Notes under the pieces: generated by a model
What the model was told of the DNA's origin: nothing
Databases searched by the model: none
Seen by the model: the letters and a program-made list of their open reading frames with translations, nothing else
Position numbers and translations under genes: made by a program
Virus record (IMG/VR): IMGVR_UViG_3300029877_000022
Span: 1-16,041 of that record
Strand: one strand, 5' to 3'
Length of the DNA: 16,041 nt
DNA from: a virus
Lineage: Duplodnaviria; Heunggongvirae; Uroviricota; Caudoviricetes
Part shown: piece by piece, positions 221-15,033 of the stretch
Position numbering within the stretch: the first letter of the stretch is position 1
Layout: the number at the start of each line of letters is the position of its first letter

Positions 221-748
221 ATGGCACTCACCGACAAGCAAGAAATGTTCTGTCGCGAGTACCTCATCGATTTAAACGCCACGCAAGCGGCTATTCGGGC
301 GGGGTACAGCGCAAAAACAGCCAACCGTACCGCATCCGAAAACCTGTCAAAACCTGACATACAATTCAGAATCTCCGAATTGAAAGCACAACGCAATGAC
401 TCTGTTGGAATAAATGCAGAATACGTACTTAATCGCCTTCTTGAAATCGACCAGATGGATGTGCTCGACATTCTCCTGCAAAACGGTGAGTTAAAGCCCA
501 TTAAAGACTGGCCTAAAGTATGGCGCACAACGCTATCAGGAATGGATGTCGTGGAGATGGTATCCGCAGATAGTTCCGCACTTCTGAAGAAAATCAAATG
601 GCCAGATAAGGTCAAAAACCTCGAACTTCTTGGTAAGCATGTTTCCGTTCAGGCATTTAAAGAACAAGCTTCTCATGAGCTAACCGGCAAAGACGGCGGC
701 GCAATCCAGATTGAAACATCACCGATGAGCACTCTATTCGGAAAATGA
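221..748 (+). CDS. Terminase small subunit (Terminase_2-type, N-terminal HTH)
   Basis: 175-aa ORF immediately upstream of and overlapping the large terminase (ATGA overlap at 745..748). N-terminus LTDKQEMFCREYLIDLNATQAAIRAGYSAKTA matches the conserved motif of the phage small terminase family as I recall it. Position is first gene of the packaging/structural operon. Confidence 0.85.
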   Translation: MALTDKQEMFCREYLIDLNATQAAIRAGYSAKTANRTASENLSKPDIQFRISELKAQRNDSVGINAEYVLNRLLEIDQMDVLDILLQNGELKPIKDWPKVWRTTLSGMDVVEMVSADSSALLKKIKWPDKVKNLELLGKHVSVQAFKEQASHELTGKDGGAIQIETSPMSTLFGK

Positions 749-2160
749 CCTCGATTAATCCTATCTTTGAACCGTTCATTGAGGCGCATCGCTACAAAGT
801 CGCCAAAGGCGGTCGAGGTAGCGGTAAGTCATGGGCAATTGCGAGGCTGCTTGTTGAAGCGGCGCGTCGGCAGCCTGTGCGCATCCTCTGTGCTCGTGAA
901 CTGCAAAACAGTATCAGCGATTCGGTAATCCGGTTGCTTGAAGACACCATCGAGCGGGAAGGGTATTCGGCTGAGTTTGAAATTCAGCGTTCAATGATTC
1001 GTCATCTCGGAACGAATGCTGAATTCATGTTCTACGGCATCAAAAACAACCCGACGAAGATTAAATCGCTCGAAGGCATTGATATCTGCTGGGTGGAAGA
1101 AGCGGAAGCGGTAACGAAGGAATCATGGGATATCCTGATCCCAACCATCCGTAAGCCGTTCTCTGAAATATGGGTGAGCTTTAACCCGAAGAACATCCTC
1201 GACGATACCTATCAGCGATTCGTCGTAAATCCTCCCGATGATATTTGCCTGCTGACGGTGAACTACACCGACAACCCGCACTTTCCTGAAGTTCTCCGTC
1301 TGGAGATGGAAGAGTGCAAACGCAGAAATCCGACACTGTATCGTCACATCTGGCTTGGTGAGCCAGTAAGCGCAAGTGATATGGCAATCATCAAACGTGA
1401 ATGGCTTGAAGCCGCAACCGATGCGCACAAGAAACTCGGATGGAAAGCGAAAGGCGCGGTTGTCTCTGCGCATGACCCGTCAGATACAGGGCCAGATGCT
1501 AAAGGTTACGCATCGCGTCACGGTTCGGTGGTTAAGCGCATTGCCGAAGGTCTGCTGATGGACATCAACGAGGGTGCTGACTGGGCTACTTCGCTGGCGA
1601 TTGAAGACGGCGCTGACCATTACCTGTGGGATGGTGATGGTGTTGGTGCCGGGCTACGCAGACAGACAACGGAAGCGTTCTCCGGTAAGAAAATCACCGC
1701 CACGATGTTTAAGGGTAGTGAATCGCCATTCGATGAAGATGCGCCTTATCAGGCCGGAGCATGGGCTGATGAAGTCGTACAGGGCGACAACGTTCGCACT
1801 GTTGGCGATGTGTTCCGCAATAAGCGAGCGCAATTCTATTACGCACTGGCTGACAGGCTGTATCTGACATATCGGGCGGTTGTCCACGGTGAGTATGCAG
1901 ACCCCGACGACATGCTGAGCTTCGACAAAGAAGCGATAGGCGAGAAGATGCTGGAGAAGCTGTTTGCAGAACTGACGCAGATTCAGCGCAAATTCAATAA
2001 TAACGGGAAGCTGGAGCTTATGACTAAGGTCGAAATGAAGCAGAAGCTCGGTATTCCATCTCCTAACCTGGCTGATGCGCTGATGATGTGTATGCATTGC
2101 CCGGAGTCGGCTGCGCAACCCGACTATTCCAGTTACTCAATTCCTTGTGGTGTAGGTTGA
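745..2160 (+). CDS. Terminase large subunit (ATPase/nuclease)
   Basis: 471-aa ORF with Walker A-like KGGRGSGKS near the N-terminus. Size and sequence recalled as very close to the Sf6-type large terminase (about 470 aa). Start overlaps the small terminase stop. Confidence 0.9.
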   Translation: MTSINPIFEPFIEAHRYKVAKGGRGSGKSWAIARLLVEAARRQPVRILCARELQNSISDSVIRLLEDTIEREGYSAEFEIQRSMIRHLGTNAEFMFYGIKNNPTKIKSLEGIDICWVEEAEAVTKESWDILIPTIRKPFSEIWVSFNPKNILDDTYQRFVVNPPDDICLLTVNYTDNPHFPEVLRLEMEECKRRNPTLYRHIWLGEPVSASDMAIIKREWLEAATDAHKKLGWKAKGAVVSAHDPSDTGPDAKGYASRHGSVVKRIAEGLLMDINEGADWATSLAIEDGADHYLWDGDGVGAGLRRQTTEAFSGKKITATMFKGSESPFDEDAPYQAGAWADEVVQGDNVRTVGDVFRNKRAQFYYALADRLYLTYRAVVHGEYADPDDMLSFDKEAIGEKMLEKLFAELTQIQRKFNNNGKLELMTKVEMKQKLGIPSPNLADALMMCMHCPESAAQPDYSSYSIPCGVG

Positions 2161-2161
2161 T

Positions 2162-4360
2162 ATGGCAGAAAAAAAGATGACTGACTGGCATCGCAAGGTG
2201 CTGTGCAACTTTGATAATGCCTGGTCAGCAACGCAGGATATGCGTGAGCAGATTATTGAGGCTCAACGTTTCGTCCGGGTGTCCGGCGCACAGTGGGAAG
2301 GCAGCACAAACGCTGGTTACTCATTTGATGAAGGCAGGTTTGAGCATTACCCGCGCTTTGAACTGAATAAGATTGCCCGTGAATGTGATCGCATCATTGG
2401 CGAGTATCGACAGAATCGCATCAGCGTTAAATTCAGGCCGAAGGACGATAAGGCATCGGAAGCGTTGGCCGAAAAGATGAACGGCAAATTCCGCGCTGAC
2501 TATCAGGAAACATCCGGTGGCGAAGCGTGTGATAACGCATTTGATGATGCTGTAACGGGTGGATTCGGTTGTTTCCGCATGTGTGCCGATTACGAAGATG
2601 AAATGGATCCGAGTAACGAGCAACGCCGTATAAGCCTTCTTCCTGTTTACGACCCAGCGACATGCGTCTTCTTTGATCAGGACAGCAAGCAATATGACCG
2701 CTCTGATGCTATGTGGGCTATGGAAATGTTCTCCATGACGCCCAAAGCGTTCGAGGCTGAATACCCTGATTCCATCGCGGCAAGCCTTTCTCGTGATGAC
2801 ACTGGCACTCAATATGACTGGTCAACGCCCGATGCCATCTATGTTGGACGCTACTACGAAGTTCGCATAGAGAAGGTGAAGCTCACGGCGTGGCGCAACC
2901 CTGTTAGCGGAGAAACGGCAATCTATGATGAAGAGCAAATCAAAGATGTTGTCGACGAGCTAACCGATGGCGCATTCGAACTGATTGGTGAGCGAACGGT
3001 GAAGAAACGCCGCGTTTATTGCGGCCTTCTGTCTGGCGCTGAATGGCTGGAAGAACCGAAGCGTATTCCGGGCGAACATATTCCTCTCATCCCGGTATAT
3101 GGGCGTCGCTCATTTGTTGATAATCAGGAGCGAATCGAAGGCCACGCAGCAAAAGCGATGGATGCACAGCGTCTTGAGAACCTGATGGTTTCCATGATTG
3201 CAGATAACGCTACTCAGGCTGGCGGTGATGGCATTCCTGTAGTTGATGTTGACATGATTCCTGGTCCTCTCGCCAATCATTGGGCGGAGCGCAACAAAAA
3301 GCGCCCGGCGTTCCTGCCGATGGTAAGTCTGAAAAACAAAAACGGAGATATTACTGCGCAGGCTCAGGTCAGCAGTTATACACCTCCAACACAAATGCCT
3401 CCTGCTCTTGCCGGGCTATTACAGTACACCGGAACGGCTATTCAGCAAATTACAGGTGCGTCGCAGCTTGAGAACATGCCGAGCAACGTCGCTACCGATA
3501 CCGTTGATAGCATCTTTAACAGGATGGACACGCAGTCATATATCTACATGGACAACATGGCTAAATCCATGCGTCGCGCTGGCGTTGTGTGGCTTTCTAT
3601 GGCGCGTGAGGTCTATGGCAGCGATACGCCAATGCGCATCGTTAATGAGGACGGCAGCGATGACGTGGCGCTGATGACTGGTGAAGTGGTTGACCGTCAG
3701 ACAGGGCAGGTTATCGCGCTTAACGACCTTTCGCAGGGTAACTATGAAGTGACTGTCGATGTCGGTCAGTCGTTCGCTACTCGCCGTGATGCAACGGTTA
3801 AGTCGTTACTTTCCATGCTGGCACTTATCCCACCAGGAACGCCGAAGCACGACCTTGTATCGTCGATGATTCTCGACAATATGGACGGCGAAGGGATGGA
3901 CGATCTTAAAGAATACAACCGCAATCAGTTGCTTCTGTCTGGAGTTATCAAGCCGAGAACACCAGAAGAACAGCAGATGGTTGAGCAGGCGAAACAACAA
4001 CAGGCCAGTCAGCCGGATCCGGCTATGGTTGCAGCGCAAGGTCAGCTTCTTGCTGGTCAGGCTGAATTGCAGAAAGCGCAGAACGAACAGGCAGCCATTC
4101 AGGTTAAAGCATTCCAGGCACAGACTGATGCTCAGGTTGCTGCGGCAAACGTTGTGAAAATCCTCGCATCTGCCGATAGCCAGCAGAAATCTGATATCCG
4201 CGAGGCTCTGAAACTGCTCGGACAGTTCCAGCAACAGCAAGGAGACAATGCCCGTGCTGATGCAGAGCTTGTCCTGAAAAGTCAGGCGCAGGGACATGCA
4301 CAACGCATGGACATCAGCAGCATCCTGCAAAAATCAACTCAGCAACAACCACAGCAATAA
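2162..4360 (+). CDS. Portal protein (P22 gp1-like)
   Basis: 732-aa ORF directly after the large terminase (stop 2158..2160, ATG 2162). Size close to P22 portal (725 aa). Shares recalled motifs with P22 gp1 (GEHIPLIPVYG, KPRTPEEQQ, DPAMVAAQGQLLAGQAELQKAQN) and has a Q-rich helical C-terminal tail. Confidence 0.9.
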   Translation: MAEKKMTDWHRKVLCNFDNAWSATQDMREQIIEAQRFVRVSGAQWEGSTNAGYSFDEGRFEHYPRFELNKIARECDRIIGEYRQNRISVKFRPKDDKASEALAEKMNGKFRADYQETSGGEACDNAFDDAVTGGFGCFRMCADYEDEMDPSNEQRRISLLPVYDPATCVFFDQDSKQYDRSDAMWAMEMFSMTPKAFEAEYPDSIAASLSRDDTGTQYDWSTPDAIYVGRYYEVRIEKVKLTAWRNPVSGETAIYDEEQIKDVVDELTDGAFELIGERTVKKRRVYCGLLSGAEWLEEPKRIPGEHIPLIPVYGRRSFVDNQERIEGHAAKAMDAQRLENLMVSMIADNATQAGGDGIPVVDVDMIPGPLANHWAERNKKRPAFLPMVSLKNKNGDITAQAQVSSYTPPTQMPPALAGLLQYTGTAIQQITGASQLENMPSNVATDTVDSIFNRMDTQSYIYMDNMAKSMRRAGVVWLSMAREVYGSDTPMRIVNEDGSDDVALMTGEVVDRQTGQVIALNDLSQGNYEVTVDVGQSFATRRDATVKSLLSMLALIPPGTPKHDLVSSMILDNMDGEGMDDLKEYNRNQLLLSGVIKPRTPEEQQMVEQAKQQQASQPDPAMVAAQGQLLAGQAELQKAQNEQAAIQVKAFQAQTDAQVAAANVVKILASADSQQKSDIREALKLLGQFQQQQGDNARADAELVLKSQAQGHAQRMDISSILQKSTQQQPQQ

Positions 4361-4450
4361 TTAACCCATAACGTGCAATGGCTGTCTTTATGAGGCCTGG
4401 CACCCTATTGCCTTCCGATGGGCTGAACATCGAGTAAACAGGGGTAACAA

Positions 4451-5344
4451 ATGGACCAGATGGCAGAAAACACACCAGAAGTTGAAATCGAAACCGACGC
4501 GTCAGAGCAGATTCCTGATGATGTCGAACTGGCTGAAGAAGTCGAAACAGAAGATGGCAGTGAGTCCTCCGGCAATGGTGCAGAGGAAGCTAGTGAAACT
4601 GATGACGACGAATCAGAACAGGAATTCTACTTTGGTGACGAAAAGCTGGATTCGCCAACCAGCGAAGATGGCGCAGAGCATGGACTGGTAAAACACCTGC
4701 GCAAGACGATTAAAGAGAAAGACCGCGAGCTGAAAGAGCTGATGCGTCAGTCTCAGAAACCCGTCGAGCAGCAGCCGGTAATCACTCTACCACCGCGGAT
4801 GCCAAAACTGGACGATGAGGACATCGGTTTCGATGAAGAAATCTACCAGCAACGCATGGCTAAGTGGGCAGAGGATAACGGCAAGTACCAGCAACAGGAG
4901 ATGGCTCGCAAGCAGAAGGAGCAGGAGCTTCAGGCTGCCTATCAAGAGCGATTATCCAAATATCAGCAACGTGTTAAGGCTCTCAAAGTTCCTGGCTATC
5001 AGGAAGCTGAGCAGGCCGTACTCGAGGAAATCCCCATCGAGACACAAAACGCGATCCTGTTTGAGTCAGAGAAGCCGGAAATCGTTGTTCTGGCGCTCGG
5101 TCGCAACGCTGAACTGCGCAAGCAACTGGCAGAAGCTACAAACCCCGTAGCAATTGGTCGTCTGCTGGAACGTATCGAATCGAAGGCCAGAATCATGCCA
5201 AAAGCAAAAACCACGGCAGCCACAACCCCGACAGTTAAGGGGAGCAACGGCGCAGTAATCAATAACCTCGACAAACTGAAAGCCAAGGCGCTGGAAACTG
5301 GTGACTGGACGCCGTATTTCGCCGCTAAAAAGGCAAAAAAATAA
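4451..5344 (+). CDS. Scaffolding protein (P22 gp8-like)
   Basis: 297-aa ORF between portal and coat. Very acidic N-terminus (D/E-rich), charged coiled-coil-like middle, basic C-terminus. Size near P22 gp8 (303 aa). RBS-like AGGGG 8 nt upstream of the ATG. Confidence 0.8.
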   Translation: MDQMAENTPEVEIETDASEQIPDDVELAEEVETEDGSESSGNGAEEASETDDDESEQEFYFGDEKLDSPTSEDGAEHGLVKHLRKTIKEKDRELKELMRQSQKPVEQQPVITLPPRMPKLDDEDIGFDEEIYQQRMAKWAEDNGKYQQQEMARKQKEQELQAAYQERLSKYQQRVKALKVPGYQEAEQAVLEEIPIETQNAILFESEKPEIVVLALGRNAELRKQLAEATNPVAIGRLLERIESKARIMPKAKTTAATTPTVKGSNGAVINNLDKLKAKALETGDWTPYFAAKKAKK

Positions 5345-5362
5345 CCTATCGGAGCATTAAGC

Positions 5363-6616
5363 ATGGCTAACCAATTAGCAAAAGACCTTGAAATCATGTT
5401 CGAAAACTACGTTGAAGGCTTTGAGGCCGCCTGCGTAGTTTCCCGTAACGCTAAAAAATTCCGTCCCGGTGATACAGCAATGCAGCGAGCAGGTGATGTT
5501 CTGTATCGTCCGCAGCATTACCACATGAACATTGAGGAAGGCCTCGACCTCAGCGGCAAAACGCCAACAGCACTGGTTCAGCGCCTTGTTCCTTCTGTGT
5601 TCAAGGAGCCGAAAAACATTCTGTACACTCTGGATGCGCGTGAAATGCGTGACCCGGAACATAAAACTGAAGCTGGTCGCGCCGCAGGTATGCGCCTTGC
5701 TGCACAGATTGACTCGGACCTGATTTCCATGGTCACGCAGCGTGCTACTAACGTGATCACAATGGCTGACTCAACCACTGGTTCACAGGGCCGTGATTTG
5801 TGGAACTGTGCGGCAGGTATTGATGCCACCATGACGGCGATTGGTGTACCACAGGGTATCAACCGCCGCTCTTTCTGGAACCCCTTCAACTACAAAGACC
5901 TTGCTGGCGAGCTTGGTCACCGTGCCTATGCTCAGGGCGCAACCCTGACAGCATACGAAAAAGCGCAGATCCCTCCGGTTGCTTCCTTTGATAGCTACAA
6001 GACCGATATTTCTGGTCGATTACCGAAAGGAAGCACTGAATCCTTGACAGTATCAGGCCAACCTGAACACAAGGTTGAAGCGAAAGATTCAAATGGTATG
6101 CCAGTTGATAACCGACAGGGGACTATTACGGTATCTGCATCTGGCTTGCAGGTTGGTGATGCGTTCACCATTGCCGGTGTGAATTCCGTACACCAGATCA
6201 CAAAAGATACCACCGGTCAACCGCAGGTATTCCGTGTTCTGGCTGTTAGCGGAAATACCGTAACAATTTCTCCAAAGATTCTCCCTGTTGAAAATACTGA
6301 TGTTGCGAGTCGTCCATATGCAAACGTCGATGCCAAACCGGCAGAATCAGCAGCAATCACCATTCTCAACAAGAACGCAGCACCTGCTAACCTGTTCTGG
6401 GCTGATGGTTCTGTTGAGCTTATGTACGGCAAACTGGCGTTCCCGACTGGTCAGGGTCCACAGGTAATGACAGCAACCACCGAGCAGGGCGCTACGCTGA
6501 TCATGTCTTACGCCTTCGACCACATCAAAGGCGTAACCACTGCTCGTTTCACCACTCTGTACGGTTGCTCTGTACTTGTTCCTGAATATACGGGCATCGT
6601 TATTGCCGGGCAGTAA
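5363..6616 (+). CDS. Major coat (capsid) protein (P22 gp5-like)
   Basis: 417-aa ORF after the scaffold gene with GGAG RBS. Size near P22 coat (430 aa). C-terminal region NLFWADGSVELMYGK resembles P22 coat NVFWADDAIRIVSQ from memory. Followed by a terminator hairpin. Confidence 0.85.
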   Translation: MANQLAKDLEIMFENYVEGFEAACVVSRNAKKFRPGDTAMQRAGDVLYRPQHYHMNIEEGLDLSGKTPTALVQRLVPSVFKEPKNILYTLDAREMRDPEHKTEAGRAAGMRLAAQIDSDLISMVTQRATNVITMADSTTGSQGRDLWNCAAGIDATMTAIGVPQGINRRSFWNPFNYKDLAGELGHRAYAQGATLTAYEKAQIPPVASFDSYKTDISGRLPKGSTESLTVSGQPEHKVEAKDSNGMPVDNRQGTITVSASGLQVGDAFTIAGVNSVHQITKDTTGQPQVFRVLAVSGNTVTISPKILPVENTDVASRPYANVDAKPAESAAITILNKNAAPANLFWADGSVELMYGKLAFPTGQGPQVMTATTEQGATLIMSYAFDHIKGVTTARFTTLYGCSVLVPEYTGIVIAGQ

Positions 6617-6620
6617 TTTT

Positions 6621-6646
6621 GGTGGGGCTTCGGCCCCATTTTTATT
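6621..6646 (+). terminator. Rho-independent terminator/attenuator after the coat gene
   Basis: GGGGC-TTCG-GCCCC stem-loop (6624..6637) with a TTCG tetraloop, followed by ATTTTTATT. Lies 5 nt after the coat stop codon. Confidence 0.65.
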
Positions 6647-6657
6647 GGGAGAAGACA

Positions 6658-6846
6658 ATGGCACGAACAATGCTCTATAAGCCTGGCAACATGATCACCT
6701 GTGGTCAGTTTGCTGTCGATTACATCATTGTTGATGACGAAGAAGTTAAATCTCACCTGAAAAAAGGTTGGGTAAAAACTCCTGAAGAAACCGCAACGAA
6801 GCAAAAAGTGGCTAAGGCGGAAGAAGATGGCGAAAACGAAGGGTGA
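6658..6846 (+). CDS. Small hypothetical protein (62 aa) between coat and gp4-like genes
   Basis: ORF-track frame 6619..6846. I place the start at ATG 6658 because GGGAGAAG sits 4 to 11 nt upstream and the 6619 start would lie inside the terminator hairpin. Acidic C-terminus. The 3' end overlaps the gp4-like start by 20 nt. Function unknown. Confidence 0.55.
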   Translation: MARTMLYKPGNMITCGQFAVDYIIVDDEEVKSHLKKGWVKTPEETATKQKVAKAEEDGENEG

Positions 6847-7288
6847 TCTCGTTCTAAAGGCTTTACGAAAAGCCGGGCTGTATTCCAGTGCCACGTTGAC
6901 AGATGCTGACCCTCAGGCAATTGAAGATGCCATTAATGACCTCGAAGACATGATGGCAGCATGGCAGGCTAAAGGTATCGAGCTTGGGTATCAGTTTGCT
7001 GATACAGAAAACGGCATCATGCCGTTACCGGACGATGATTCAGGTATCCCTGCATGGGCAAATGATGGCGTCGCTTTGAAACTCGCTGTGCAAGTGTGCA
7101 TGGATAACGTCATTCAGCCGTCAGACGCTCTCCTTACCGCTGCTGACAGTGCATATCAGACAATCTGTATCGCTTTAACCAAAATACCACCACTTGAGCG
7201 GCGAAATGACATGCCTCGCGGTAGTGGTAACAAAAGCGCGTTTACGTGGAATCGGTTTTACATCGAGAAAGATGATCCGAGTACGTGA
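6827..7288 (+). CDS. Head completion / portal-binding tail adaptor (P22 gp4-like)
   Basis: 153-aa ORF. N-terminus MAKTKGDLVLKALRKAGLYSSATLTDADPQAIEDAINDLEDMMAAW closely parallels recalled P22 gp4 ([44 protein letters not shown]). Gene order matches P22. Confidence 0.85.
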   Translation: MAKTKGDLVLKALRKAGLYSSATLTDADPQAIEDAINDLEDMMAAWQAKGIELGYQFADTENGIMPLPDDDSGIPAWANDGVALKLAVQVCMDNVIQPSDALLTAADSAYQTICIALTKIPPLERRNDMPRGSGNKSAFTWNRFYIEKDDPST

Positions 7289-7297
7289 GGTGAATAA

Positions 7298-8716
7298 ATG
7301 CCGATTCAGCAACTTCCGCTTATGAAAGGTGTCGGCAAAGACTTTCGAAACGCCGACTATATCGACTATCTGCCAGTGAATATGTTGGCTACACCCAAAG
7401 AAATCCTGAACAGCAGCGGATATCTTCGCTCATTCCCGGGCATTGCCAAACGTTCTGATGTGAACGGCGTATCGCGAGGCGTCGAGTACAACATGGCGCA
7501 GAATGCTGTTTATCGCGTGTGTGGTGGCAAACTGTATAAGGGCGAAAGTGAGGTCGGTGATGTTGCCGGAAGTGGTCGCGTATCAATGGCGCATGGTCGA
7601 ACATCACAGGCGGTAGGCGTTAACGGGCAACTGGTCGAATACCGCTATGATGGCACGGTTAAAACCGTCTCAAACTGGCCTGCAGACAGCGGGTTTACGC
7701 AGTATGAGTTAGGTTCGGTTCGCGACATTACGCGTTTACGTGGGCGTTATGCGTGGTCAAAAGACGGCACTGATTCATGGTTTATCACTGACCTTGAAGA
7801 CGAATCGCATCCTGACCGTTACAGCGCACAATATCGTGCCGAGTCTCAGCCGGACGGCATCATCGGTATCGGGACATGGCGAGACTTCATCGTCTGCTTT
7901 GGTTCATCGACTATTGAATATTTCTCCCTTACTGGCGCAACCACCGTTGGTGCTGCTTTGTATGTCGCACAGCCATCACTGATGGTGCAAAAAGGCATCG
8001 CCGGGACTTACTGCAAAACGCCGTTTGCTGATTCTTATGCATTCATCAGCAATCCGGCAACAGGTGCGCCGTCTGTATACATCATCGGCTCCGGTCAGGT
8101 GTTACCAATCGCCAGCGCGAGCATTGAGAAAATCCTCCGCTCCTACACTGCTGATGAACTGGCTGATGGCGTGATGGAATCGTTGCGGTTTGATGCTCAT
8201 GAGTTGCTGATTATTCACCTGCCGCGCCATGTACTCGTGTACGACGCATCTTCAAGCGCTAATGGTCCGCAATGGTGTGTGCTGAAAACAGGCCTGTATG
8301 ACGATGTGTACCGCGCTATCGACTTCATTTACGAAGGCAATCAGATAACGTGCGGCGATAAGCTGGAATCGGTTACCGGTAAATTGCAGTTCGATATCAG
8401 CAGCCAGTACGACAAGCAACAGGAACACCTGCTGTTTACTCCATTGTTCAAAGCGGATAACGCAAGAGTGTTTGACCTTGAAGTTGAATCGTCAACTGGT
8501 GTTGCGCAGTACGCTGACCGCCTGTTCCTCTCTGCTACCACTGACGGCATCAATTACGGTCGTGAGCAGATGATTGAGCAGAATGAACCGTTTGTTTACG
8601 ACAAACGCGTTTTGTGGAAGCGAGTCGGGCGCATCAGGAAAAATGTCGGCTTCAAATTGCGCGTTATCACGAAGTCACCTGTCACTCTGTCTGGTTGCCA
8701 GATAAGGATTGAGTAA
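7298..8716 (+). CDS. Tail hub / tail accessory factor (P22 gp10-like)
   Basis: 472-aa ORF, the same length as P22 gp10, in the syntenic position between the gp4-like and tail needle genes. Confidence 0.8.
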
Positions 8717-9417
8717 TGGCTGATTCGAATCTCAACACCCCTGTTATTGTGCAGGCGACGCGGCTCGATACATCAATCCTTCCACGCAATATATTCAGCC
8801 AGTCTTACCTGTTGTATGTCATTAATCAGGGGGCTGATGTCGGCGCAATTGCCGGGAAGGCAAATCAGGCTGGTCAGGGCGCTTACGATGCCCAGGTAAA
8901 AAACGATGAACAGGATGTCGAACTGGCTGATCACGACGCAAGAATCACCGCAAACACAAAAGCGATAAATCTCCTTGAGGTCAGGTTAACAACCGCCGAA
9001 GGGAAGATAGTCATACTACGTAGCGATGTTGATTACTTGCTGGATGAGGTTATCGATATTCAGGCGCATCTGGTCACTGTTGACCAAATGCTGGATGACG
9101 TAGAAAACGATGTCTCTGGCATTAAGAGTGATTACGTATCGAAAACCGTAACCGAATCGCAGTCTCTTGCGTCACCGCTGGATGTAAAAACATCATATTC
9201 AGTTGATGGAATTCAGGTTGTTGGAGCAAGAAATACCGGATGGACTGCAGCCACAGGTACACCTCTTTTGGGCTCATTCAACGCTAACCAGTCATACACA
9301 GTCGGCACTACGTACACACAATCCGAAGTCGCAGCCCTCGCTACAGGGTTGCAGCAGGCGCGGCAGCGTATTCTGGCGCTTGAAACGGCACTTAGATTAC
9401 ATGGGCTGATTGACTGA
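8716..9417 (+). CDS. Tail needle / cell-puncturing plug protein (P22 gp26-like)
   Basis: 233-aa ORF, the same length as P22 gp26. N-terminus [73 protein letters not shown] and C-terminus [25 protein letters not shown]...HGLID are near-identical to recalled gp26; the central coiled coil diverges. TAATG start/stop overlap with the gp10-like gene. Confidence 0.9.
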
Positions 9418-9872
9418 TGATTACATTCAAACCAACGCGAAACATCGACCTGATAGAAGCCGTAGGAAATCACCCTGACATTATCGCCGGGAGCAACAAC
9501 GGTGATGGATACGACTACAAACCTGATTACCGTTACTTTGAGGTGAACGTGCACGGGCAGTTCGGCGGAATTGTTTACTATCAGGAGATTCAGCCGCTAA
9601 CCTTTGATTGCCACGCCATGTACCTGCCAGAGATTCGCGGCTTCAGCAAGGAAATCGGGCTGGCGTTCTGGCGATACATTCTGACTAACACCACCGTTCA
9701 GTGCGTCACATCGTTCGCTGCGCGCAAATTCCGCCACGGGCAGATGTACTGCGCAATGATTGGCCTTAAGCGTGTAGGGACCATCAAGAAATACTTCAAA
9801 GGCGTGGATGACGTGACGTTTTACAGCGCCACACGCGAAGAACTAATCGACTTCCTGAATCACAGGAGATAG
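9417..9872 (+). CDS. gp14-like virion assembly/ejection-associated protein
   Basis: 151-aa ORF in the position of P22 gene 14 (between needle and ejection protein genes). Start ATG overlaps the needle gene stop (TGATGA). Assignment is by synteny and size only. Confidence 0.6.
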   Translation: MITFKPTRNIDLIEAVGNHPDIIAGSNNGDGYDYKPDYRYFEVNVHGQFGGIVYYQEIQPLTFDCHAMYLPEIRGFSKEIGLAFWRYILTNTTVQCVTSFAARKFRHGQMYCAMIGLKRVGTIKKYFKGVDDVTFYSATREELIDFLNHRR

Positions 9873-9874
9873 CC

Positions 9875-10567
9875 ATGTTATATGCATTTAAGCTGGGCAG
9901 AAAACTGCGCGGCGAGGAACCTTATTACCCTGAAAAAGGCGGGAAAGGTGGCAGTTCTGATAAAAGCGCAAAGTATGCAGCAGAAGCTCAGAAGTATGCC
10001 GCAGACCTGCAAAATCAGCAGTGGCAGACGATCATGAAAAACCTTGCTCCGTTCACGCCTCTTGCGGAGCAGTATGTTAACCAGCTTCAGAACATTTCCA
10101 GTTTAGAAGGTCAGGGGCAGGCACTTAATCAGTATTACAACTCTCAGCAGTATAAAGACCTTGCAGGTCAGGCTCGTTACCAGAGTCTTGCTGCTGCGGA
10201 GGCGACTGGCGGACTTGGTTCGACAGCTACAAGCAATCAACTGGCCACGATTGCCCCGACTCTCGGTCAGTCGTGGTTGTCGAACCAGATGAGCAACTAC
10301 AACAATCTGGCAAACATTGGCCTTGGTGCGCTGCAAGGTCAGGCGAACGCCGGGCAGACATACGCCAACAACATGAGCAGCATTGCGCAGCAAAGCGCAG
10401 CACTTGCCGCTGCTAACGCCAATAAACCATCAGGCCTTCAGACAGCAATTAGCGGTGGCACGTCTGGTGCGATTGCCGGTGCAGGTCTTGCCAGCCTTTT
10501 GGGAACATCAACGCCTTGGGGCGCTGGCATTGGTGCTGGTATCGGATTGCTTGGCTCGTTGTTTTAA
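9875..10567 (+). CDS. Ejection (internal virion) protein, P22 gp7-like
   Basis: 230-aa ORF (P22 gp7 is about 229 aa) with GGAG RBS. Q/N/A-rich low-complexity body and a Gly-rich hydrophobic C-terminus (GAIAGAGLASLLG...GAGIGAGIGLLGSLF) consistent with a membrane-inserting ejection protein. Syntenic position. Confidence 0.75.
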   Translation: MLYAFKLGRKLRGEEPYYPEKGGKGGSSDKSAKYAAEAQKYAADLQNQQWQTIMKNLAPFTPLAEQYVNQLQNISSLEGQGQALNQYYNSQQYKDLAGQARYQSLAAAEATGGLGSTATSNQLATIAPTLGQSWLSNQMSNYNNLANIGLGALQGQANAGQTYANNMSSIAQQSAALAAANANKPSGLQTAISGGTSGAIAGAGLASLLGTSTPWGAGIGAGIGLLGSLF

Positions 10568-10576
10568 GGGGTAATA

Positions 10577-11872
10577 ATGGCTACTTGGCAAGGATCAAAT
10601 GGCGGATTGTTGGCTGGTATCGGCGGCGTCAACTCAAACGCTCCGAGCGTAAATGACATCGGCAATACGCTTCAGCTTATCAGGCAGAACAATGATATTG
10701 AGCGTTCAGGCGCTAACAATGTTGGGCTGACTGCTTTGCAAGGCCTTTCAGGTATTGCAGGAGTGTTTCAGCAGGAAAAGCAGGCTCAGCGGCAGAAAGA
10801 ATTTCAGCAGGCGTACGCTAATGCTTATACGTCTGGTGATCGCGGTGCTTTGCGTCAGTTGGCTACTCAATATCCAGACCAGATTGAATCCGTTCGTAAA
10901 GGCATGGGATTCATTGATGAAGACCAGCGCAATTCCATCGGTACCTTAGCGGCTGGCGCACGCCTTGCGTCATCGTCTCCAGAAGCAATGCAATCATGGC
11001 TGCAAAACAACGCCAAGGAACTGACTCGCGTCGGTGTTGACCCTAATAACGTTGCTCAGATGTATCAGCAGAATCCTTCAGGATTTGGTGAGTTTGTTGA
11101 TCACCTTGGAATGGCTGCTCTTGGTCCGATTGATTACTTCAATGTTCAGGACAAGATGGCTGGTCGTGAGATTGACCGAGGCAGGCTGGCAGAGACAATC
11201 CGCAGCAATCAGGCAGGAGAAGCACTAACAGCTCGAGGTCAGGACATCCAGATACGTGGACAGAACATCAGCGCACAGAATGCTGCTCTTTCCCGAGAAA
11301 TACAAAGAGCAGAATTACAAGAAAAGGCTCTGGACAGACAGATAGCCAGAGAAAGCAATCAGTTAAAGCTTGAAGAGCTAAAACAGAAACAGGCAGATGT
11401 TCGGCAAAAGGCTGACATAGCCCGCGCTGACAGGCAGGCCGCCGCTCAGGGTGCAGTTGATACGTTCAGCACCGCGCTTGATTCTCTCAACGAGATAGAG
11501 CAAAGCCCCGGCCTTTCAAAAGCAGTAGGAATTCGCTCAGCGTTTCCGACAGTTCCTGGCTCTGATGCGGCTAACTTTGAAGCAAGGCTCGACACCTTTA
11601 AAGCTCAAACATTCCTTCCTATGGTGCAGTCCCTGAAGGGTATGGGCGCTCTTTCAGATGCAGAGGGTAAAAAATTATCCGATGCGGTTGGTGCCCTAAG
11701 CCCCAAAATGAGTGAAAAGGCTTTTCGTGACTCTATCGGAAAGATTAGAAATCAGCTTGAAAGCAAGTTGAGCACTGTTAAAAAACAGTTTGATTATCAG
11801 GAGCCGGTGCAGAATATGCCAGGGCAACAATCTACTACTGGCAGTAACTTTTCTTCGCTATGGGGTGATTAA
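10577..11872 (+). CDS. Ejection (internal virion) protein, P22 gp20-like
   Basis: 431-aa ORF in the syntenic position, with AAGGGG RBS. Contains a long charged coiled-coil segment (IRGQNISAQNAALSREIQRAELQEKALDRQIARESNQLKLEELKQKQADVRQKADIARADRQ). Confidence 0.7.
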   Translation: MATWQGSNGGLLAGIGGVNSNAPSVNDIGNTLQLIRQNNDIERSGANNVGLTALQGLSGIAGVFQQEKQAQRQKEFQQAYANAYTSGDRGALRQLATQYPDQIESVRKGMGFIDEDQRNSIGTLAAGARLASSSPEAMQSWLQNNAKELTRVGVDPNNVAQMYQQNPSGFGEFVDHLGMAALGPIDYFNVQDKMAGREIDRGRLAETIRSNQAGEALTARGQDIQIRGQNISAQNAALSREIQRAELQEKALDRQIARESNQLKLEELKQKQADVRQKADIARADRQAAAQGAVDTFSTALDSLNEIEQSPGLSKAVGIRSAFPTVPGSDAANFEARLDTFKAQTFLPMVQSLKGMGALSDAEGKKLSDAVGALSPKMSEKAFRDSIGKIRNQLESKLSTVKKQFDYQEPVQNMPGQQSTTGSNFSSLWGD

Positions 11873-13869
11873 TGGCTAAAGCATGGAAAGATGTTATCGC
11901 CTCTCCACAGTATCAGGCGTTAGCACCAGAACAAAAAGCGCAGGCTCAGGAGCAATACTTCAATGAAGTCGTTGCCCCGCAAGCCGGAGAAAATGCAGAG
12001 CAGGCTAAGCAAGCTTTCTATGCTGCCTATCCATTGCCATCTGTGCAGCCAGTGGAGACACAACAACCAGTATCACAGCAACAACCACAGCAAAGTGGAT
12101 TTATGTCGGATCTTGGTGAAGCCGTGAAAGAAACTGGTCGCGGACTGGTGCAGGCTGGCGTGAACGTGGCAAACATACCTGCATCAGTTGCCGATGCTGT
12201 AACAAGCGCGGCGGCTTGGGCTGGCGGTAAACTCGGAATTGGCGATGGGACATATCACCCAGCGCCACGAGTAACAACGCAGGGATTAGAGCAGGACTTT
12301 GGCCTTCAGCAAGGCGCGCTGACTCCACAAACTACAGAGGGCAGGGTATTTGCTGAGGCATTGCCTTACCTCACTCCTGCTGGCATTGAGAGAGCGGCAA
12401 CACAGGCACCAACACTCGCTGGTAGAATCGCTCAGGGTGCAACTCGCCTTCTCGCTGAAAACGCAGTCGGGTCACTTGCTGCAAATAGTGCGAAAGATGA
12501 TGCGGAAGCACTCGCTACCGATTTAGGCATTGGCGTTCTGGCTGGCGGCGCTATTAACGCTGCCGGACGTGGATTAGGCGCTGCTTATCGTGGCGTTCGT
12601 GGTGCTATTGCACCAGAAGCGCAGCAAGCTATCAGATTTGCAGAGCGTGAAGGAGTGCCTCTGCACACCACAGACCTGTTACAGCCTAGTTCCCGCGTCG
12701 GAAAAATGGCGCAAACGACAGCAGAAAATATCCCCCTGGCTGGCACAAGCGGAATGAGAGCAACGCAACAGGAAGCGAGAAGCCAGTTGGTTCAGAGATT
12801 TGCTGATAAATTCGGTGAGTATGATCCAGCGGTTGTTATTGACAGCCTTAAAGCGAAAACATCAGGAATTCGTCGCGCTGCAGGAAATCGACTGGAGCAG
12901 GTTCAGAATGCTATGGCGGGAATAAACATTCAGCCTGCAAGAGCAATTCAGCAGATTGATACAGAAATATCTAACCTGCAGAAGCTTGGTAAGGTTGCTG
13001 ATAACGAGACTATTTCAAAACTTCAGTCCTATCGTGATGAGCTTGTTCGCAATGCTGGTCCTGATGGTCCGGTAAATCTGGATTTGAAGCAATTAAGCGA
13101 TCTGCGCAGCCAGTTCAGAATGGACGTGAAGGGTGAGCGACCAGTGTTACCAAACCGTTCCGATGCTGCCATTCAGCGCGTTTACAAGGCAATGACCGAC
13201 GATATCAATGGTGCCATTGGTCAGAATCTTGGCAACGATACTCTCCGTAAATATCAGCAGGCCAATGCCGTCTACGCTGACGAAGCCGCGAAACTAAAGA
13301 ATACCAGGCTGAAGAATGTTCTCATGAAAGGCGATCTGACGCCGGAAGTTGTCAACAACATGCTATTCAGCAAGAACAAATCGGAAATTAAGACGCTGTA
13401 TAACTCAGTTGGTCGTGTTGGCAGGGCGCAAATGCGCAATGGCATCATTGGAAAGGCGATGGAGAAATCTGGCGGATCCCCTGACCAGTTCCTTCGGCAG
13501 CTTAACATCCTGCAAAACCAGACTGGCATCACATTTAAGGGGCAGGACGCTGCTTATCTGAAAGGATTAAAAAACTACCTGCAATCTACGCAGCAGGCTG
13601 CAAAAGCGGCAGTAACAACACCCACAGGGCAGCAAACTATCCCGTTCATTATTGGGTATGGGACGGCAATGAACCCTGCGACAACTGGCGCAGCAGTAAG
13701 CTACGGACTTCTTACTCGCGCCTATGAGAGCGAGCCATTCAGAAATGCAATGCTCAGAATGGCAAACACCCCACGCGGATCAACAGCGTTTGAGAAAGCC
13801 ATGCAGCAGGCACAAAAGGCAATTAACGCTATGACGCAGGGGGCTAAGTCTGATGCGTTGTCAGAATAG
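11872..13869 (+). CDS. Ejection (internal virion) protein, P22 gp16-like
   Basis: 665-aa ORF, last gene of the ejection protein trio. TAATG start/stop overlap with the previous gene. Assignment by synteny and size (P22 gp16 about 609 aa). Q/P-rich N-terminal segment. Confidence 0.7.
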   Translation: MAKAWKDVIASPQYQALAPEQKAQAQEQYFNEVVAPQAGENAEQAKQAFYAAYPLPSVQPVETQQPVSQQQPQQSGFMSDLGEAVKETGRGLVQAGVNVANIPASVADAVTSAAAWAGGKLGIGDGTYHPAPRVTTQGLEQDFGLQQGALTPQTTEGRVFAEALPYLTPAGIERAATQAPTLAGRIAQGATRLLAENAVGSLAANSAKDDAEALATDLGIGVLAGGAINAAGRGLGAAYRGVRGAIAPEAQQAIRFAEREGVPLHTTDLLQPSSRVGKMAQTTAENIPLAGTSGMRATQQEARSQLVQRFADKFGEYDPAVVIDSLKAKTSGIRRAAGNRLEQVQNAMAGINIQPARAIQQIDTEISNLQKLGKVADNETISKLQSYRDELVRNAGPDGPVNLDLKQLSDLRSQFRMDVKGERPVLPNRSDAAIQRVYKAMTDDINGAIGQNLGNDTLRKYQQANAVYADEAAKLKNTRLKNVLMKGDLTPEVVNNMLFSKNKSEIKTLYNSVGRVGRAQMRNGIIGKAMEKSGGSPDQFLRQLNILQNQTGITFKGQDAAYLKGLKNYLQSTQQAAKAAVTTPTGQQTIPFIIGYGTAMNPATTGAAVSYGLLTRAYESEPFRNAMLRMANTPRGSTAFEKAMQQAQKAINAMTQGAKSDALSE

Positions 13870-13962: not shown

Positions 13963-14448
13963 TTATCTGATGTTACTGCTACTGTTGCATGTGACTGTAT
14001 TTCCAAACCCTGAATTGCAGTTTGTGTAAGTTTCAACTCGTGTTGGATAGGGTTGAGTTATAACAGGCTGTCTCGCTTTTTGCTCGATCGCTTGCATTGT
14101 GTTTACAGCCTGATAATTCAATAAAGCCTGCTGGAATGCTTGGCTTTGCGCTATTTGTTGGGCTTGTTCTTGGCTTTGTAGTTGAACATAAAGATTCTGA
14201 AGCTCAAGTCTTGCCTGCGCGTCACTTATCTTGCCATCATCGACACCTTGCCCGAGCATCTTCGCAGCAAGGACATATAACTTAGGTGTTGGTGCTGATG
14301 CCATGCGTGAGTCGTTCTTCACGCTAGCATCAAGGCAATTAGCCATATCGCTAAGCTTTGGATAGCGTTGTTCGCAATTTGCCTGATAGTCGCTAACCTT
14401 TGCGCACCCTGCCAGCAGAAGCGGGATAATTAACAGTGATTTTTTCAT
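13963..14448 (-). CDS. Predicted secreted lipoprotein, function unknown (accessory/moron gene)
   Basis: Minus-strand ORF. I place the start at the ATG at 14446..14448 (MKKSLLIIPLLLAGC) because AAGGAG lies 9 nt upstream and this gives a canonical lipoprotein signal peptide with lipobox LAGC. Mature part has cysteines near both ends and a Q-rich helical middle. No recognisable homologue from memory. Confidence 0.7.
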   Translation of the reverse strand: MKKSLLIIPLLLAGCAKVSDYQANCEQRYPKLSDMANCLDASVKNDSRMASAPTPKLYVLAAKMLGQGVDDGKISDAQARLELQNLYVQLQSQEQAQQIAQSQAFQQALLNYQAVNTMQAIEQKARQPVITQPYPTRVETYTNCNSGFGNTVTCNSSSNIR

Positions 14449-14582
14449 ATGATTAACTCTCCTTATCTTTGCCATCATGGCACTGTTGGGTGTAAATGAG
14501 TTATTAACTCAATCGACAATATCTTCACGAAAATACTTTTTATTATTAAGATCTTTCTGATTCTAACAAAACGGAAAGTAAT

Positions 14583-15002
14583 ATGAAGAGGATTATCGGC
14601 GTCGTTGCTGGCGCTATATTGTTATCTGGGTGCGCAACTATTGTTGGTGATGAAACGCAGCTTGTGCAAGTGAACAGCAATCCTTCTGGCGCGAGCTTTA
14701 AGGTAAAAGATGAATCTGGTGTGATTGTTGCGCAAGGTAAGACTCCACAAGGTGTAACACTCGCCAAGTCAGATGGTAGCTATTTTGGCAAAAAGAGCTA
14801 CCAGATCACTATGGAGAAGGATGGGTACGAACCAGTTACCCTGCCAATCAAAGCCAATGCTAATGGTTGGTATATTGGTGGGAACCTTGTGTTTGGTGGG
14901 TTAATTGGTTGGCTTGCTGTAGATCCATTTAATGGTGGGATGTATACCTTGAAGCCTAAAGAGGCAAATGCATCCCTTATACCGTCCACAAAGCAAGACT
15001 AA
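14583..15002 (+). CDS. Predicted lipoprotein with PEGA-like domain, function unknown (accessory/moron gene)
   Basis: 139-aa ORF with lipoprotein signal MKRIIGVVAGAILLSGC (lipobox LSGC). Middle region NPSGASFKVKD...GKTPQGVTL...YQITMEKDGYEP resembles the PEGA domain pattern. Gly/Trp-rich C-terminal segment GWYIGGNLVFGGLIGWLAVDPFNGGMYTL. Followed by a terminator. Confidence 0.7.
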   Translation: MKRIIGVVAGAILLSGCATIVGDETQLVQVNSNPSGASFKVKDESGVIVAQGKTPQGVTLAKSDGSYFGKKSYQITMEKDGYEPVTLPIKANANGWYIGGNLVFGGLIGWLAVDPFNGGMYTLKPKEANASLIPSTKQD

Positions 15003-15009
15003 TAAATGG

Positions 15010-15033
15010 AACCCACCATCAGGTGGGTTTTTT
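15010..15033 (+). terminator. Rho-independent terminator after the lipoprotein gene, overlapping the mnt stop codon
   Basis: AACCCACC-ATCA-GGTGGGTT hairpin (15010..15029) followed by a T-run to 15033. The poor U-tract on the opposite strand suggests it acts mainly on + strand transcripts. Confidence 0.7.

What the first reader, a model, noticed from the sequence alone, without database searches (positions are those of the whole stretch)
6617..6657. Tetraloop terminator immediately after the coat gene, inside a polycistronic operon
A GC-rich hairpin with TTCG loop and a T-rich tail sits between the coat gene and the downstream tail and ejection genes. It is a plausible partial terminator or RNA-stability element that sets high coat (about 415 copies per capsid) versus low downstream protein stoichiometry.
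Basis: seen in the sequence. Interest (0 to 1): 0.4.

Follow-up and report, generated by a model that had tools for sequence, protein, structure and literature searches.

The report
Terminator-type hairpin after phage coat gene
A small, strongly conserved RNA hairpin with a U-rich tail sits just after the coat-protein gene of a P22-like (CUS-3-type) E. coli prophage; the same feature is already annotated in phages P22 and HK97, discussed for phage L, and present in lambda, so it is real but ordinary.

Summary
The window is the late operon of a CUS-3-like, P22-like E. coli prophage. The 41-nt gap between the coat gene (stop 6614-6616) and a conserved 62-codon ORF (ATG 6658) holds GGUGGGGC-UUCG-GCCCCAUU (6621-6640, about -13 kcal/mol), then UUUUUAUU and a Shine-Dalgarno sequence.

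Folding energy alone is not remarkable; position and conservation are. The stem is far less variable than coat codon positions across 116 haplotypes. Nineteen of 23 P22-coat-family lineages, down to about 25% coat identity, have a different GC hairpin plus T tail within 105 nt of the coat stop. Pairing is kept through two-sided changes, and G-U pairs occur only on the sense strand.

The same layout is annotated in P22 and HK97, discussed for phage L, and present in lambda. T7's terminator after its capsid gene is the tested analogue. About a third of ORFs preceding this exact hairpin core in viral contigs are major capsid genes.

Most likely it is a leaky terminator and 3'-end protector of the coat message. 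It is read through because the operon is Q-antiterminated and the stem starts 4 nt after a heavily translated stop codon. The effect on protein ratios is inferred, not shown. Novelty and interest are low.

The parts
5363..6616 (+). Coat (major capsid) protein gene, 417 aa, stop TAA at 6614-6616. This is the cistron whose 3' end the hairpin marks.
   Evidence: Pfam P22_CoatProtein E=9e-77 over the full length. It is 99% identical to the CUS-3 coat protein.
6621..6640 (+). RNA hairpin: 5' arm 6621-6628 GGUGGGGC, UUCG tetraloop 6629-6632 closed by a C-G pair, 3' arm 6633-6640 GCCCCAUU. It has 6 Watson-Crick and 2 G-U pairs.
   Evidence: -13.3 kcal/mol. The core stem has nucleotide diversity 0.007 against 0.188 at coat third positions. 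Pairing is kept by two-sided changes across lineages. G-U pairs make the sense strand the more stable one.
6639..6646 (+). U-rich tract UUUUUAUU. If A6644-U6645 are the -2/-1 positions, the predicted 3' end of terminated RNA is near U6645.
   Evidence: It matches 8 of 11 positions of the GC(U)7RU motif: -10C, -2A, -1U and 5 of 7 U (motif from bioRxiv 10.64898/2026.05.29.728758). Tail diversity is 0.015.
6647..6651 (+). Shine-Dalgarno GGGAG for the next ORF, 6 nt before its ATG. It is not sequestered by the hairpin.
   Evidence: Sequence. The minimum-free-energy fold leaves it outside the main hairpin. Positions 6648-6651 are invariant in 116 haplotypes.
6658..6846 (+). Conserved 62-codon ORF, the positional equivalent of P22 orf69. 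It overlaps the start of the gp4-like gene (6827-7288) and is the first cistron that needs read-through.
   Evidence: phrog_1175 E=9e-29. Annotated as a CDS in CUS-3 and as orf69 in P22. Third-position diversity is 0.049 against 0.018 at first and second positions.

Best explanation
The element is a Rho-independent-terminator-type RNA hairpin that acts on the sense late transcript at the 3' end of the coat cistron.

Shown here:
- The hairpin and its U-rich tract exist.
- They are under strong purifying selection.
- The position is conserved across the P22-coat family while the sequence changes, and pairing is maintained.
- G-U pairs show it works as sense-strand RNA.
- It has termination-specific features: a U run followed by A-U about 7 nt after the stem.
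- It fills a gap with no room for a promoter, in an operon whose 12 downstream genes are needed for the virion.

Inferred:
- During late infection most RNA polymerases pass it. They are Q-modified, and the ribosome finishing the heavily translated coat gene covers the 5' arm because the stop codon is 4 nt upstream.
- A minority of transcripts end near U6645. Read-through transcripts that are degraded 3' to 5' are trimmed back to the hairpin.
- In both cases the hairpin protects the 3' end, so scaffold-coat message outnumbers and outlasts the distal tail and ejection gene message.
- It would also stop polymerases that are not Q-modified and not followed by a ribosome.
For: - Structure.
- Chance: 0.52 comparable sites per shuffled 16-kb strand.
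- Close relatives: the gap is nearly invariant in 80 viral contigs. Diversity is 0.007 in the core stem, 0.0085 in the loop and 0.015 in the tail. This compares with 0.188 and 0.033 at coat third and first/second positions, and 0.049 at orf62 third positions.
- Distant relatives: 19 of 23 lineage representatives have a compact hairpin plus T tail (dG at or below -10) within 105 nt after the coat stop. Elsewhere on the same strand there are 13 such sites in 138.7 kb.
- Covariation: 96% of cells paired, 7 of 8 pairs with two-sided changes, 0 of 500 shuffles as good, slid controls 32-73% paired. One alignable compensatory change is U-A in the window against A-U in L162.
- Strand: the sense fold is clearly the more stable one in most of the Vibrio-group hairpins, for example -13.6 against -4.6 kcal/mol, and equal or slightly more stable in most others.
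- Termination features: a U run followed by A-U in 12 of 22 lineages including the window, as in the published motif.
- Operon context: Q, then lysis genes, then terminase through coat in one orientation in CUS-3. No sigma-70-like site on the + strand between 1972 and 10551. [quoted passage not shown]
- Ribosome effect: tR2 was almost fully repressed at 8-9 bp from a stop codon and maximal beyond 30 bp (PMC4824070).
- Precedents: P22 stem_loop annotation; phage L text; HK97 putative terminators; the lambda E-FI hairpin; the RNA drop after T7's terminator behind gene 10.
- Generality: roughly a third of ORFs preceding exact GGGGCTTCGGCCCC cores in viral contigs are major capsid genes of many families.
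Against: - There is no transcript data for this or any P22-like phage in what I could search. Termination efficiency, 3' ends and half-lives are unmeasured.
- Q modification and ribosome occlusion may reduce termination to nearly nothing, leaving only the protection role.
- The -11 position is C rather than the preferred G, and the U tract has 5 of 7 U, so even unmodified polymerase may terminate inefficiently.
- Three lineages (Vibrio PVA1, Aeromonas 4_4512, L184) keep the hairpin without a T tail, and one (Ralstonia Hennie) has none directly after the coat gene.
- A terminator after the coat gene cannot explain the low expression of the upstream terminase and portal genes, so translation efficiency must contribute to the protein ratios.
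- The covariation alignment was centred on the loop, so it leans towards the structure.
Confidence: 0.6

Rival explanations
1. Safety terminator only. It stops polymerases that lack the Q modification, such as stray transcription in the lysogen or before late gene activation. That keeps tail and ejection genes silent. It has no role in setting protein ratios during late infection.
For: The phage L genome paper offers this as one of two possibilities (PMC8022706). The operon is Q-dependent in CUS-3, so modified polymerase should ignore the site. Terminator-specific features are present.
Against: The site is specifically after the capsid gene in many unrelated phage families. A general barrier to stray transcription does not predict that. 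Strictly lytic relatives also have it (Lumpael, Skarpretter, Sortsne). With the stop codon 4 nt away, the site works best on untranslated RNA, which fits this idea but does not explain the position.
Confidence: 0.15
2. Pure mRNA 3'-end stabiliser. Polymerase never terminates here. The hairpin only blocks 3'-to-5' exonucleases after downstream cleavage, prolonging the life of the coat message.
For: The hairpin is kept without a T tail in PVA1, Aeromonas 4_4512 and L184. The extra-stable C(UUCG)G or GNRA loops recur. Ribosome occlusion and Q should suppress termination.
Against: A T tail is retained in 19 of the 22 hairpins. The U-run-then-AU arrangement typical of termination sites is found in 12 of 22. 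Neither is needed for exonuclease blocking. The tail is as conserved as the stem within the CUS-3 group.
Confidence: 0.15
3. Translational element. The hairpin, placed right after the stop codon, controls ribosome release or re-initiation on the 62-codon ORF. It would uncouple the ORF from the very high ribosome traffic on the coat gene.
For: The stem starts 4 nt after the stop, and the Shine-Dalgarno sequence follows the tail within 7 nt. The median stop-to-core distance is 9.5 nt in 104 viral examples.
Against: In lytic relatives the hairpin lies 16-33 nt after the stop and 40-70 nt before the next start, so the tight spacing is not a conserved requirement. Nothing in the data tests translation.
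Confidence: 0.05
4. Chance palindrome or a DNA-level site (cruciform, recombination boundary, protein-binding site) with no RNA function.
For: The 41-nt gap as a whole folds only 1.66 SD better than shuffles. P22-like phages are mosaic, and module boundaries lie near here.
Against: The position is conserved with different sequences across lineages down to 25% coat identity. Two-sided changes keep the pairing. G-U pairs would be A-C mismatches on the other strand or in a cruciform. Diversity in the stem is very low. The chance expectation is about 0.001.
Confidence: 0.03

Closest known systems
[quoted passage not shown]
   Same: Same phage group (Lederbergvirus), same gene order, and the same place: 5 nt after the coat stop, before an orf69-like small ORF and gene 4. 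The core is the same, GGGGC-UNCG-GCCCC, with a tail ending UUUAU. The role proposed in the literature is the same: partial termination or stopping non-antiterminated transcription.
   Different: The coat proteins are only about 29% identical. The loop is UUCG here and UGCG in P22. The stem here has two extra G-U pairs. The hairpin is not annotated in the CUS-3 record or by PGAP in E. coli genomes.
Lambda hairpin between E (major capsid) and FI, and the HK97 'putative terminator' after gene 5
   Same: Lambda has a 41-nt gap with the stop codon, 2 nt, a 7-bp GC stem with a UUCG loop, a U-rich stretch, a Shine-Dalgarno sequence and an ATG. HK97 has an 11-bp stem with a GAAA loop and UUUU starting 6 nt after the stop. 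All three lie in Q-type late operons.
   Different: The capsid protein families are unrelated at the sequence level, and the stem sequences differ. The lambda tail (UGUUUCUCU) is poorer in U. HK97 also brackets its protease-capsid pair and its major tail gene with further putative terminators. In this window the portal-scaffold gap has no hairpin.
T7 terminator T-phi after gene 10 (major capsid)
   Same: [quoted passage not shown] RNA abundance drops across it (PMC6938266). It works like what is proposed here.
   Different: It acts on T7 RNA polymerase rather than Q-modified host polymerase. T7 also has its own promoters in front of gene 10. T-phi has direct experimental support, and this hairpin has none.
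Canonical E. coli intrinsic terminators such as lambda tR2
   Same: A GC-rich stem, a short stable loop, a U tract, and an A-U at the predicted release site.
   Different: It lies inside an operon, 4 nt from a stop codon, where tR2 itself is almost inactive in vivo. It has C instead of G at -11 and only 5 of 7 U.

Membership tests
Intrinsic (Rho-independent) terminator | GC-rich stem of at least 5 bp with a short loop, on the transcribed strand | tested here: met
   6 Watson-Crick plus 2 G-U pairs with a UUCG loop, -13.3 kcal/mol. The sense strand is more stable than the antisense strand.
Intrinsic (Rho-independent) terminator | U-rich tract of about 7-8 nt directly 3' of the stem | tested here: met
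   UUUUUAUU at 6639-6646.
Intrinsic (Rho-independent) terminator | Bubble-edge dinucleotides: GC at -11/-10 and RU at -2/-1 (GC(U)7RU; 2026 preprint) | tested here: inconclusive
   The best register is CCCAUUUUUAU. -10C, -2A and -1U match, -11 is C, and 5 of 7 positions are U, giving 8 of 11 (rule).
Intrinsic (Rho-independent) terminator | RNA 3' ends or release of polymerase at the site | not testable with these tools
   No transcript data are available. The literature searches found none for P22-like phages.
Post-capsid-gene stem-loop of tailed phages (P22, L, HK97, lambda; T7 T-phi as the tested analogue) | Hairpin within about 100 nt downstream of the major capsid gene stop, on the same strand | tested here: met
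   The stem starts 5 nt after the coat stop. The coat gene identity comes from Pfam.
Post-capsid-gene stem-loop of tailed phages (P22, L, HK97, lambda; T7 T-phi as the tested analogue) | Position conserved among relatives while the sequence diverges | tested here: met
   19 of 23 lineages have it, covariation is strong, and lambda, HK97 and P22 fold in the same way.
Post-capsid-gene stem-loop of tailed phages (P22, L, HK97, lambda; T7 T-phi as the tested analogue) | Lies inside one late operon, with downstream virion genes that have no promoter of their own | tested here: inconclusive
   The 41-nt gap is filled by the hairpin, tail and Shine-Dalgarno sequence. No sigma-70-like + strand site lies between 1972 and 10551 (a consensus scan only). 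CUS-3 has Q and the lysis genes upstream in the same orientation.
Post-capsid-gene stem-loop of tailed phages (P22, L, HK97, lambda; T7 T-phi as the tested analogue) | Drop in RNA abundance across the site | not testable with these tools
   This is shown only for T7.
Any curated Rfam RNA family | Covariance-model score at or above the gathering threshold | tested here: not met
   There were 0 matches in the whole window.
RNase III processing site | About 20 bp or more of double-stranded RNA | tested here: not met
   Only 8 pairs form, and the flanks add no helix.

The most novel reading that the evidence does not exclude
The hairpin may be a ribosome-gated terminator. Because the stem starts 4 nt after the coat stop, it would terminate only transcripts that are not being translated or not Q-modified. 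On translated late message it would serve purely as a 3'-end cap.

This tight 'stop codon then stable tetraloop hairpin' design would be a convergent rule for major capsid genes across unrelated tailed-phage families. Temperate Q-dependent phages use 2-6 nt spacing with no promoter after it. Lytic relatives use 16-33 nt spacing, and in Lumpael a promoter-like site overlaps the terminator, with the same GGCTTATACT stretch in Sortsne.
Probability: 0.3. Interest if true: 0.4.

Novelty: already known. Interest (0 to 1): 0.17.

Why it matters
It matters mainly as annotation and as a clean, testable example. The hairpin is missing from the CUS-3 record and from PGAP annotation of the 426 of 5426 complete E. 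coli genomes that carry this junction. Its function in lambdoid late operons is still described as 'not known' in the phage L genome paper.

If the leaky terminator and 3'-end protector model holds, it helps explain how one long antiterminated transcript yields about 415 coat subunits per particle but only a dozen or so of each downstream protein. It would also give phage engineers a compact 20-nt part for tuning expression inside operons.

The survey made here is a modest quantitative confirmation of a pattern known mostly from anecdote. It found an approximately 80-fold enrichment after coat genes, and about one third of exact-core hairpins in viral contigs following capsid genes.

Tried and rejected
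- Rfam gathering-threshold scan of the whole window: no family.
- Four literature searches for transcript mapping of P22-like or lambdoid late operons across the coat gene boundary. They returned structural 'tail terminator' papers or genome descriptions. Only the phage L and epsilon34 genome papers were useful. No RNA-seq or 3'-end data were found.
- A second hairpin or promoter in the other long gap, portal to scaffold at 4361-4450: no structure beyond chance (z 0.18) and no promoter-like site. The scaffold-coat pair is therefore not bracketed here as it is in HK97 and the lytic relatives.
- Bidirectional terminator: rejected. The antisense strand has a shorter stem and the tail CCAAAAUUAC.
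- RNase III site: rejected because the stem is too short.
- My first loose hairpin scan produced dozens of long imperfect structures and was not discriminating. It was replaced by a strict compact-hairpin definition.
- A Skarpretter coat query in viral contigs mostly re-found the CUS-3 group and added little diversity.
- First MAFFT run for the diversity analysis timed out and was repeated with fast settings.
- I did not use the d'Aubenton-Carafa terminator score because I could only recall its coefficients from memory.

Full report
**What the window is**

All long ORFs from 221 to 13869 lie on the + strand and are tightly packed. Pfam and PHROGs identify them in this order:
- small and large terminase
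- P22-type portal
- scaffolding protein
- P22 coat protein (5363-6616)
- a 62-codon ORF (6658-6846)
- P22 gp4-like tail accessory factor
- gp10-like stabilisation protein
- tail needle
- a gp14-like protein
- ejection proteins gp7, gp20 and gp16

The coat-to-gp4 stretch is 98.8% identical to phage CUS-3 (Lederbergvirus). The coat-orf62 junction occurs in 426 of 5426 complete E. coli genomes, almost always on the chromosome. In CUS-3 the same genes follow a Q antiterminator gene and the lysis cassette in one orientation, which is a classical lambdoid late operon (PMC2629481). Only two gaps in the operon exceed 20 nt: portal to scaffold (90 nt) and coat to orf62 (41 nt).

**Check of the observation**

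The finding's coordinates 6617-6657 are exactly the coat-orf62 gap. It reads UAA-UUUU-GGUGGGGC-UUCG-GCCCCAUU-UUUAUU-GGGAG-AAGACA-AUG.
- The hairpin at 6621-6640 has 6 Watson-Crick pairs, 2 outer G-U pairs and the extra-stable C(UUCG)G loop. It folds at -13.3 kcal/mol (z -2.8). The 16-nt core folds at -11.2.
- The whole gap folds only 1.66 SD better than shuffles, so energy alone would not be convincing.
- The consensus scan ranks it among the two best terminator-like sites in 16 kb.
- With a strict definition (compact hairpin, dG at or below -11.5, T-rich tail), dinucleotide shuffles give 0.52 sites per strand against 3 observed. A chance hit in this particular 41-nt gap has a probability near 0.001.
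- The opposite strand forms a shorter stem with no T tail, so the element is one-directional.

**Conservation among close relatives**

Eighty viral contigs with coat proteins 95-100% identical carry an almost invariant gap. The only recurrent changes are just outside the stem and a UUCG to UACG loop change, which stays within the UNCG class.

Nucleotide diversity over 116 distinct 900-nt haplotypes:

| Region | Diversity |
|---|---|
| Coat third codon positions | 0.188 |
| Coat first and second positions | 0.033 |
| orf62 third positions | 0.049 |
| Core stem | 0.007 |
| Loop | 0.0085 |
| U-rich tail | 0.015 |

The hairpin and tail are therefore more constrained than amino-acid-determining positions. 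These figures are not phylogenetically corrected.

**Conservation among distant relatives**

I collected P22-coat-family phages down to about 25% coat identity. They included P22, IME10, Lumpael, Skarpretter, Sortsne, Kosakonia Kc259, Vibrio and Aeromonas phages, Thalassomonas BA3, Ralstonia Hennie and marine metagenomic contigs.
- Nearly all have a compact GC-rich hairpin 3-33 nt after the coat stop, with different stem sequences.
- 19 of 23 lineage representatives have a hairpin plus T tail within 105 nt of the stop. Elsewhere on the same strand there are 13 such sites in 138.7 kb, roughly an 80-fold enrichment.
- In a loop-centred alignment of 19 four-nucleotide-loop examples, 96% of cells pair and 7 of 8 pairs show two-sided changes. 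None of 500 shuffles reach that, and slid registers pair at only 32-73%. That alignment is anchored on the structure and so leans towards it.
- G-U pairs occur on the sense strand only, and the sense fold is often much more stable than the antisense fold, for example -13.6 against -4.6 kcal/mol. This points to function as sense RNA rather than DNA.
- Exceptions: PVA1, Aeromonas 4_4512 and L184 keep the hairpin without a T tail. In Ralstonia Hennie the hairpin follows the next gene instead.

**Terminator-specific features**

A 2026 preprint reports that strong intrinsic terminators fit GC(U)7RU, with the RNA 3' end at the final U.
- In the window the best register is CCCAUUUUUAU: -10C, -2A, -1U and 5 of 7 U, but C at -11.
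- Twelve of 22 lineages share the 'U run then AU' ending.
- A pure exonuclease block would not need this, so the element looks able to terminate, probably with moderate strength. The predicted 3' end is near U6645. This is inference.

**Why it must be leaky**

The gap is fully used by the hairpin, tail and Shine-Dalgarno sequence. The consensus scan finds no promoter-like site on the + strand between 1972 and 10551. Twelve virion genes lie downstream. Two things should favour read-through:
- Q modification of RNA polymerase.
- The ribosome. [quoted passage not shown] Here the stem begins 4 nt after the stop of the most heavily translated gene.

Spacing differs between groups. The window, L162, P22, IME10 and lambda have 2-6 nt. 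The lytic relatives Lumpael, Skarpretter, Sortsne and Kc259 have 16-33 nt. In Lumpael a promoter-like site overlaps the terminator.

**What is already known**

- The curated P22 record annotates a stem_loop at 6102-6119, 'similar in location to stem-loops in phage HK97 and phage lambda'. It is the only RNA feature annotated between genes 3 and 16.
[quoted passage not shown] It proposes either partial termination or stopping transcription that lacks antitermination (PMC8022706).
- HK97's record annotates a putative terminator 6 nt after its major head gene, and others bracketing the protease-capsid pair and the major tail gene.
- I confirmed by folding that lambda has a 7-bp UUCG hairpin 2 nt after the E stop in a 41-nt gap. 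HK97 and P22 fold as annotated.
- T7's single terminator lies immediately after its capsid gene, and RNA drops across it (PMC6938266).

**A wider test**

The exact core GGGGCTTCGGCCCC was searched in IMG/VR. The scan stopped at 120 stretches.
- For 104 distinct ORFs of at least 100 aa ending within 100 nt upstream, the most frequent Pfam families were capsid families: Phage_capsid_4 (9), Phage_capsid (7), Mu gpT (7, which overlaps Phage_capsid_4), P22 coat (6), SU10 capsid (3), Phage_capsid_2 (3), and Crass, T4 gp23 and T7 gp10A (1 each).
- Eight of the ten most frequent PHROG families are 'major head protein'; the other two are a head-and-protease fusion and a head maturation protease.
- Clustering shows these are separate families.
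- Roughly a third are therefore capsid genes, against the 1-2% expected for one capsid gene per genome (my estimate).
- The median stop-to-core distance is 9.5 nt.
- The sample is the first 120 hits rather than a random draw.

**Mechanism and rivals**

The best-supported reading is a leaky terminator that also protects the 3' end. Most late transcription continues. Transcripts that end at the hairpin, or are trimmed back to it, are stable, which enriches scaffold-coat message over the distal part. The structure, selection, strand and context are shown. The RNA-level consequence is inferred.

Alternatives:
- Safety terminator for unmodified polymerase: does not explain the capsid-specific position.
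- Stabiliser only: does not explain the conserved U tract and AU.
- Translational role: the spacing is not conserved in lytic relatives.
- Chance or a DNA-level site: contradicted by covariation and G-U asymmetry.

The element cannot by itself set the protein ratios, because the low-copy terminase and portal genes lie upstream of it.

**Verdict**

The feature belongs to a kind already annotated in P22 and HK97, discussed for phage L, and present in lambda. Novelty is low and interest is low. The only mildly new points are the quantified enrichment, the possible ribosome gating, and the spacing difference between temperate and lytic relatives.

Noticed in passing
window 15010-15029: A second canonical hairpin, AACCCACC-AUCA-GGUGGGUU (perfect 8 bp, about -13 to -15 kcal/mol), has a T run on the + strand and a T-rich tail on the - strand. 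It sits between convergent ORFs: 14583-15002 (+) and an Arc/Mnt-type repressor gene at 15019-15270 (-). This is in the variable 'ant moron' between gp16 and the tailspike gene (15406 onward). Late transcription would also have to read through it to reach the tailspike.
   Followed up: partly
window 13963-14478 (-) and 14583-15002 (+): Two moron ORFs of unknown function (phrog_6067 and phrog_6823, no Pfam match) both start with lipoprotein-like signal peptides and lipoboxes (…LLAGC and …LLSGC). They occupy the place where P22 has sieA, so they are possible superinfection-exclusion or surface-modifying lipoproteins.
   Followed up: partly
window 4361-4450: The only other long gap in the operon, 90 nt between portal and scaffold, has no structure beyond chance (z 0.18) and no promoter-like or terminator-like site. 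Its purpose is unexplained.
   Followed up: partly
L003 355-381 and 2787-2815; L093, L009, L184 about 2.3-2.4 kb upstream of the coat stop; L005 after its hairpin: In Lumpael, Skarpretter, Vibrio 1.090.B and contig L184 a second terminator-like hairpin lies just before the scaffold gene. Scaffold and coat are therefore bracketed, as protease and capsid are in HK97. In Lumpael a promoter-like TTGGCT-17-TATACT overlaps the post-coat terminator, and Sortsne shares the GGCTTATACT stretch.
   Followed up: partly
L007 about 3464-3483 (Ralstonia phage Hennie): There is no hairpin in the 14-nt gap after the coat gene. A strong GGCCGCCC-UUCG-GGGCGGCU hairpin with a T tail instead follows the next gene (a 229-aa hypothetical protein). 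This suggests that gene belongs to the same highly expressed unit, perhaps as a decoration protein.
   Followed up: no
IMG/VR loci L203, L205, L208, L214, L220, L221, L242, L261, L266, L272 and others: A cluster of 19 related ORFs, mostly 120-190 aa (two exceed 300 aa); the one representative scanned (L203) has no Pfam match. Each ends 5-15 nt before the identical GGGGCUUCGGCCCC hairpin. They are an unidentified, presumably abundant, phage protein family.
   Followed up: no
L009, L173-L180, L008 (Vibrio-type hairpins): These hairpins keep a G-U wobble at the second pair from the loop (GGCGGC…GUCGCC) across contigs whose coat proteins are 60-69% identical to that of Vibrio phage 1.090.B. The wobble makes the antisense strand fold much worse. 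The reason for keeping a wobble there is unknown.
   Followed up: no
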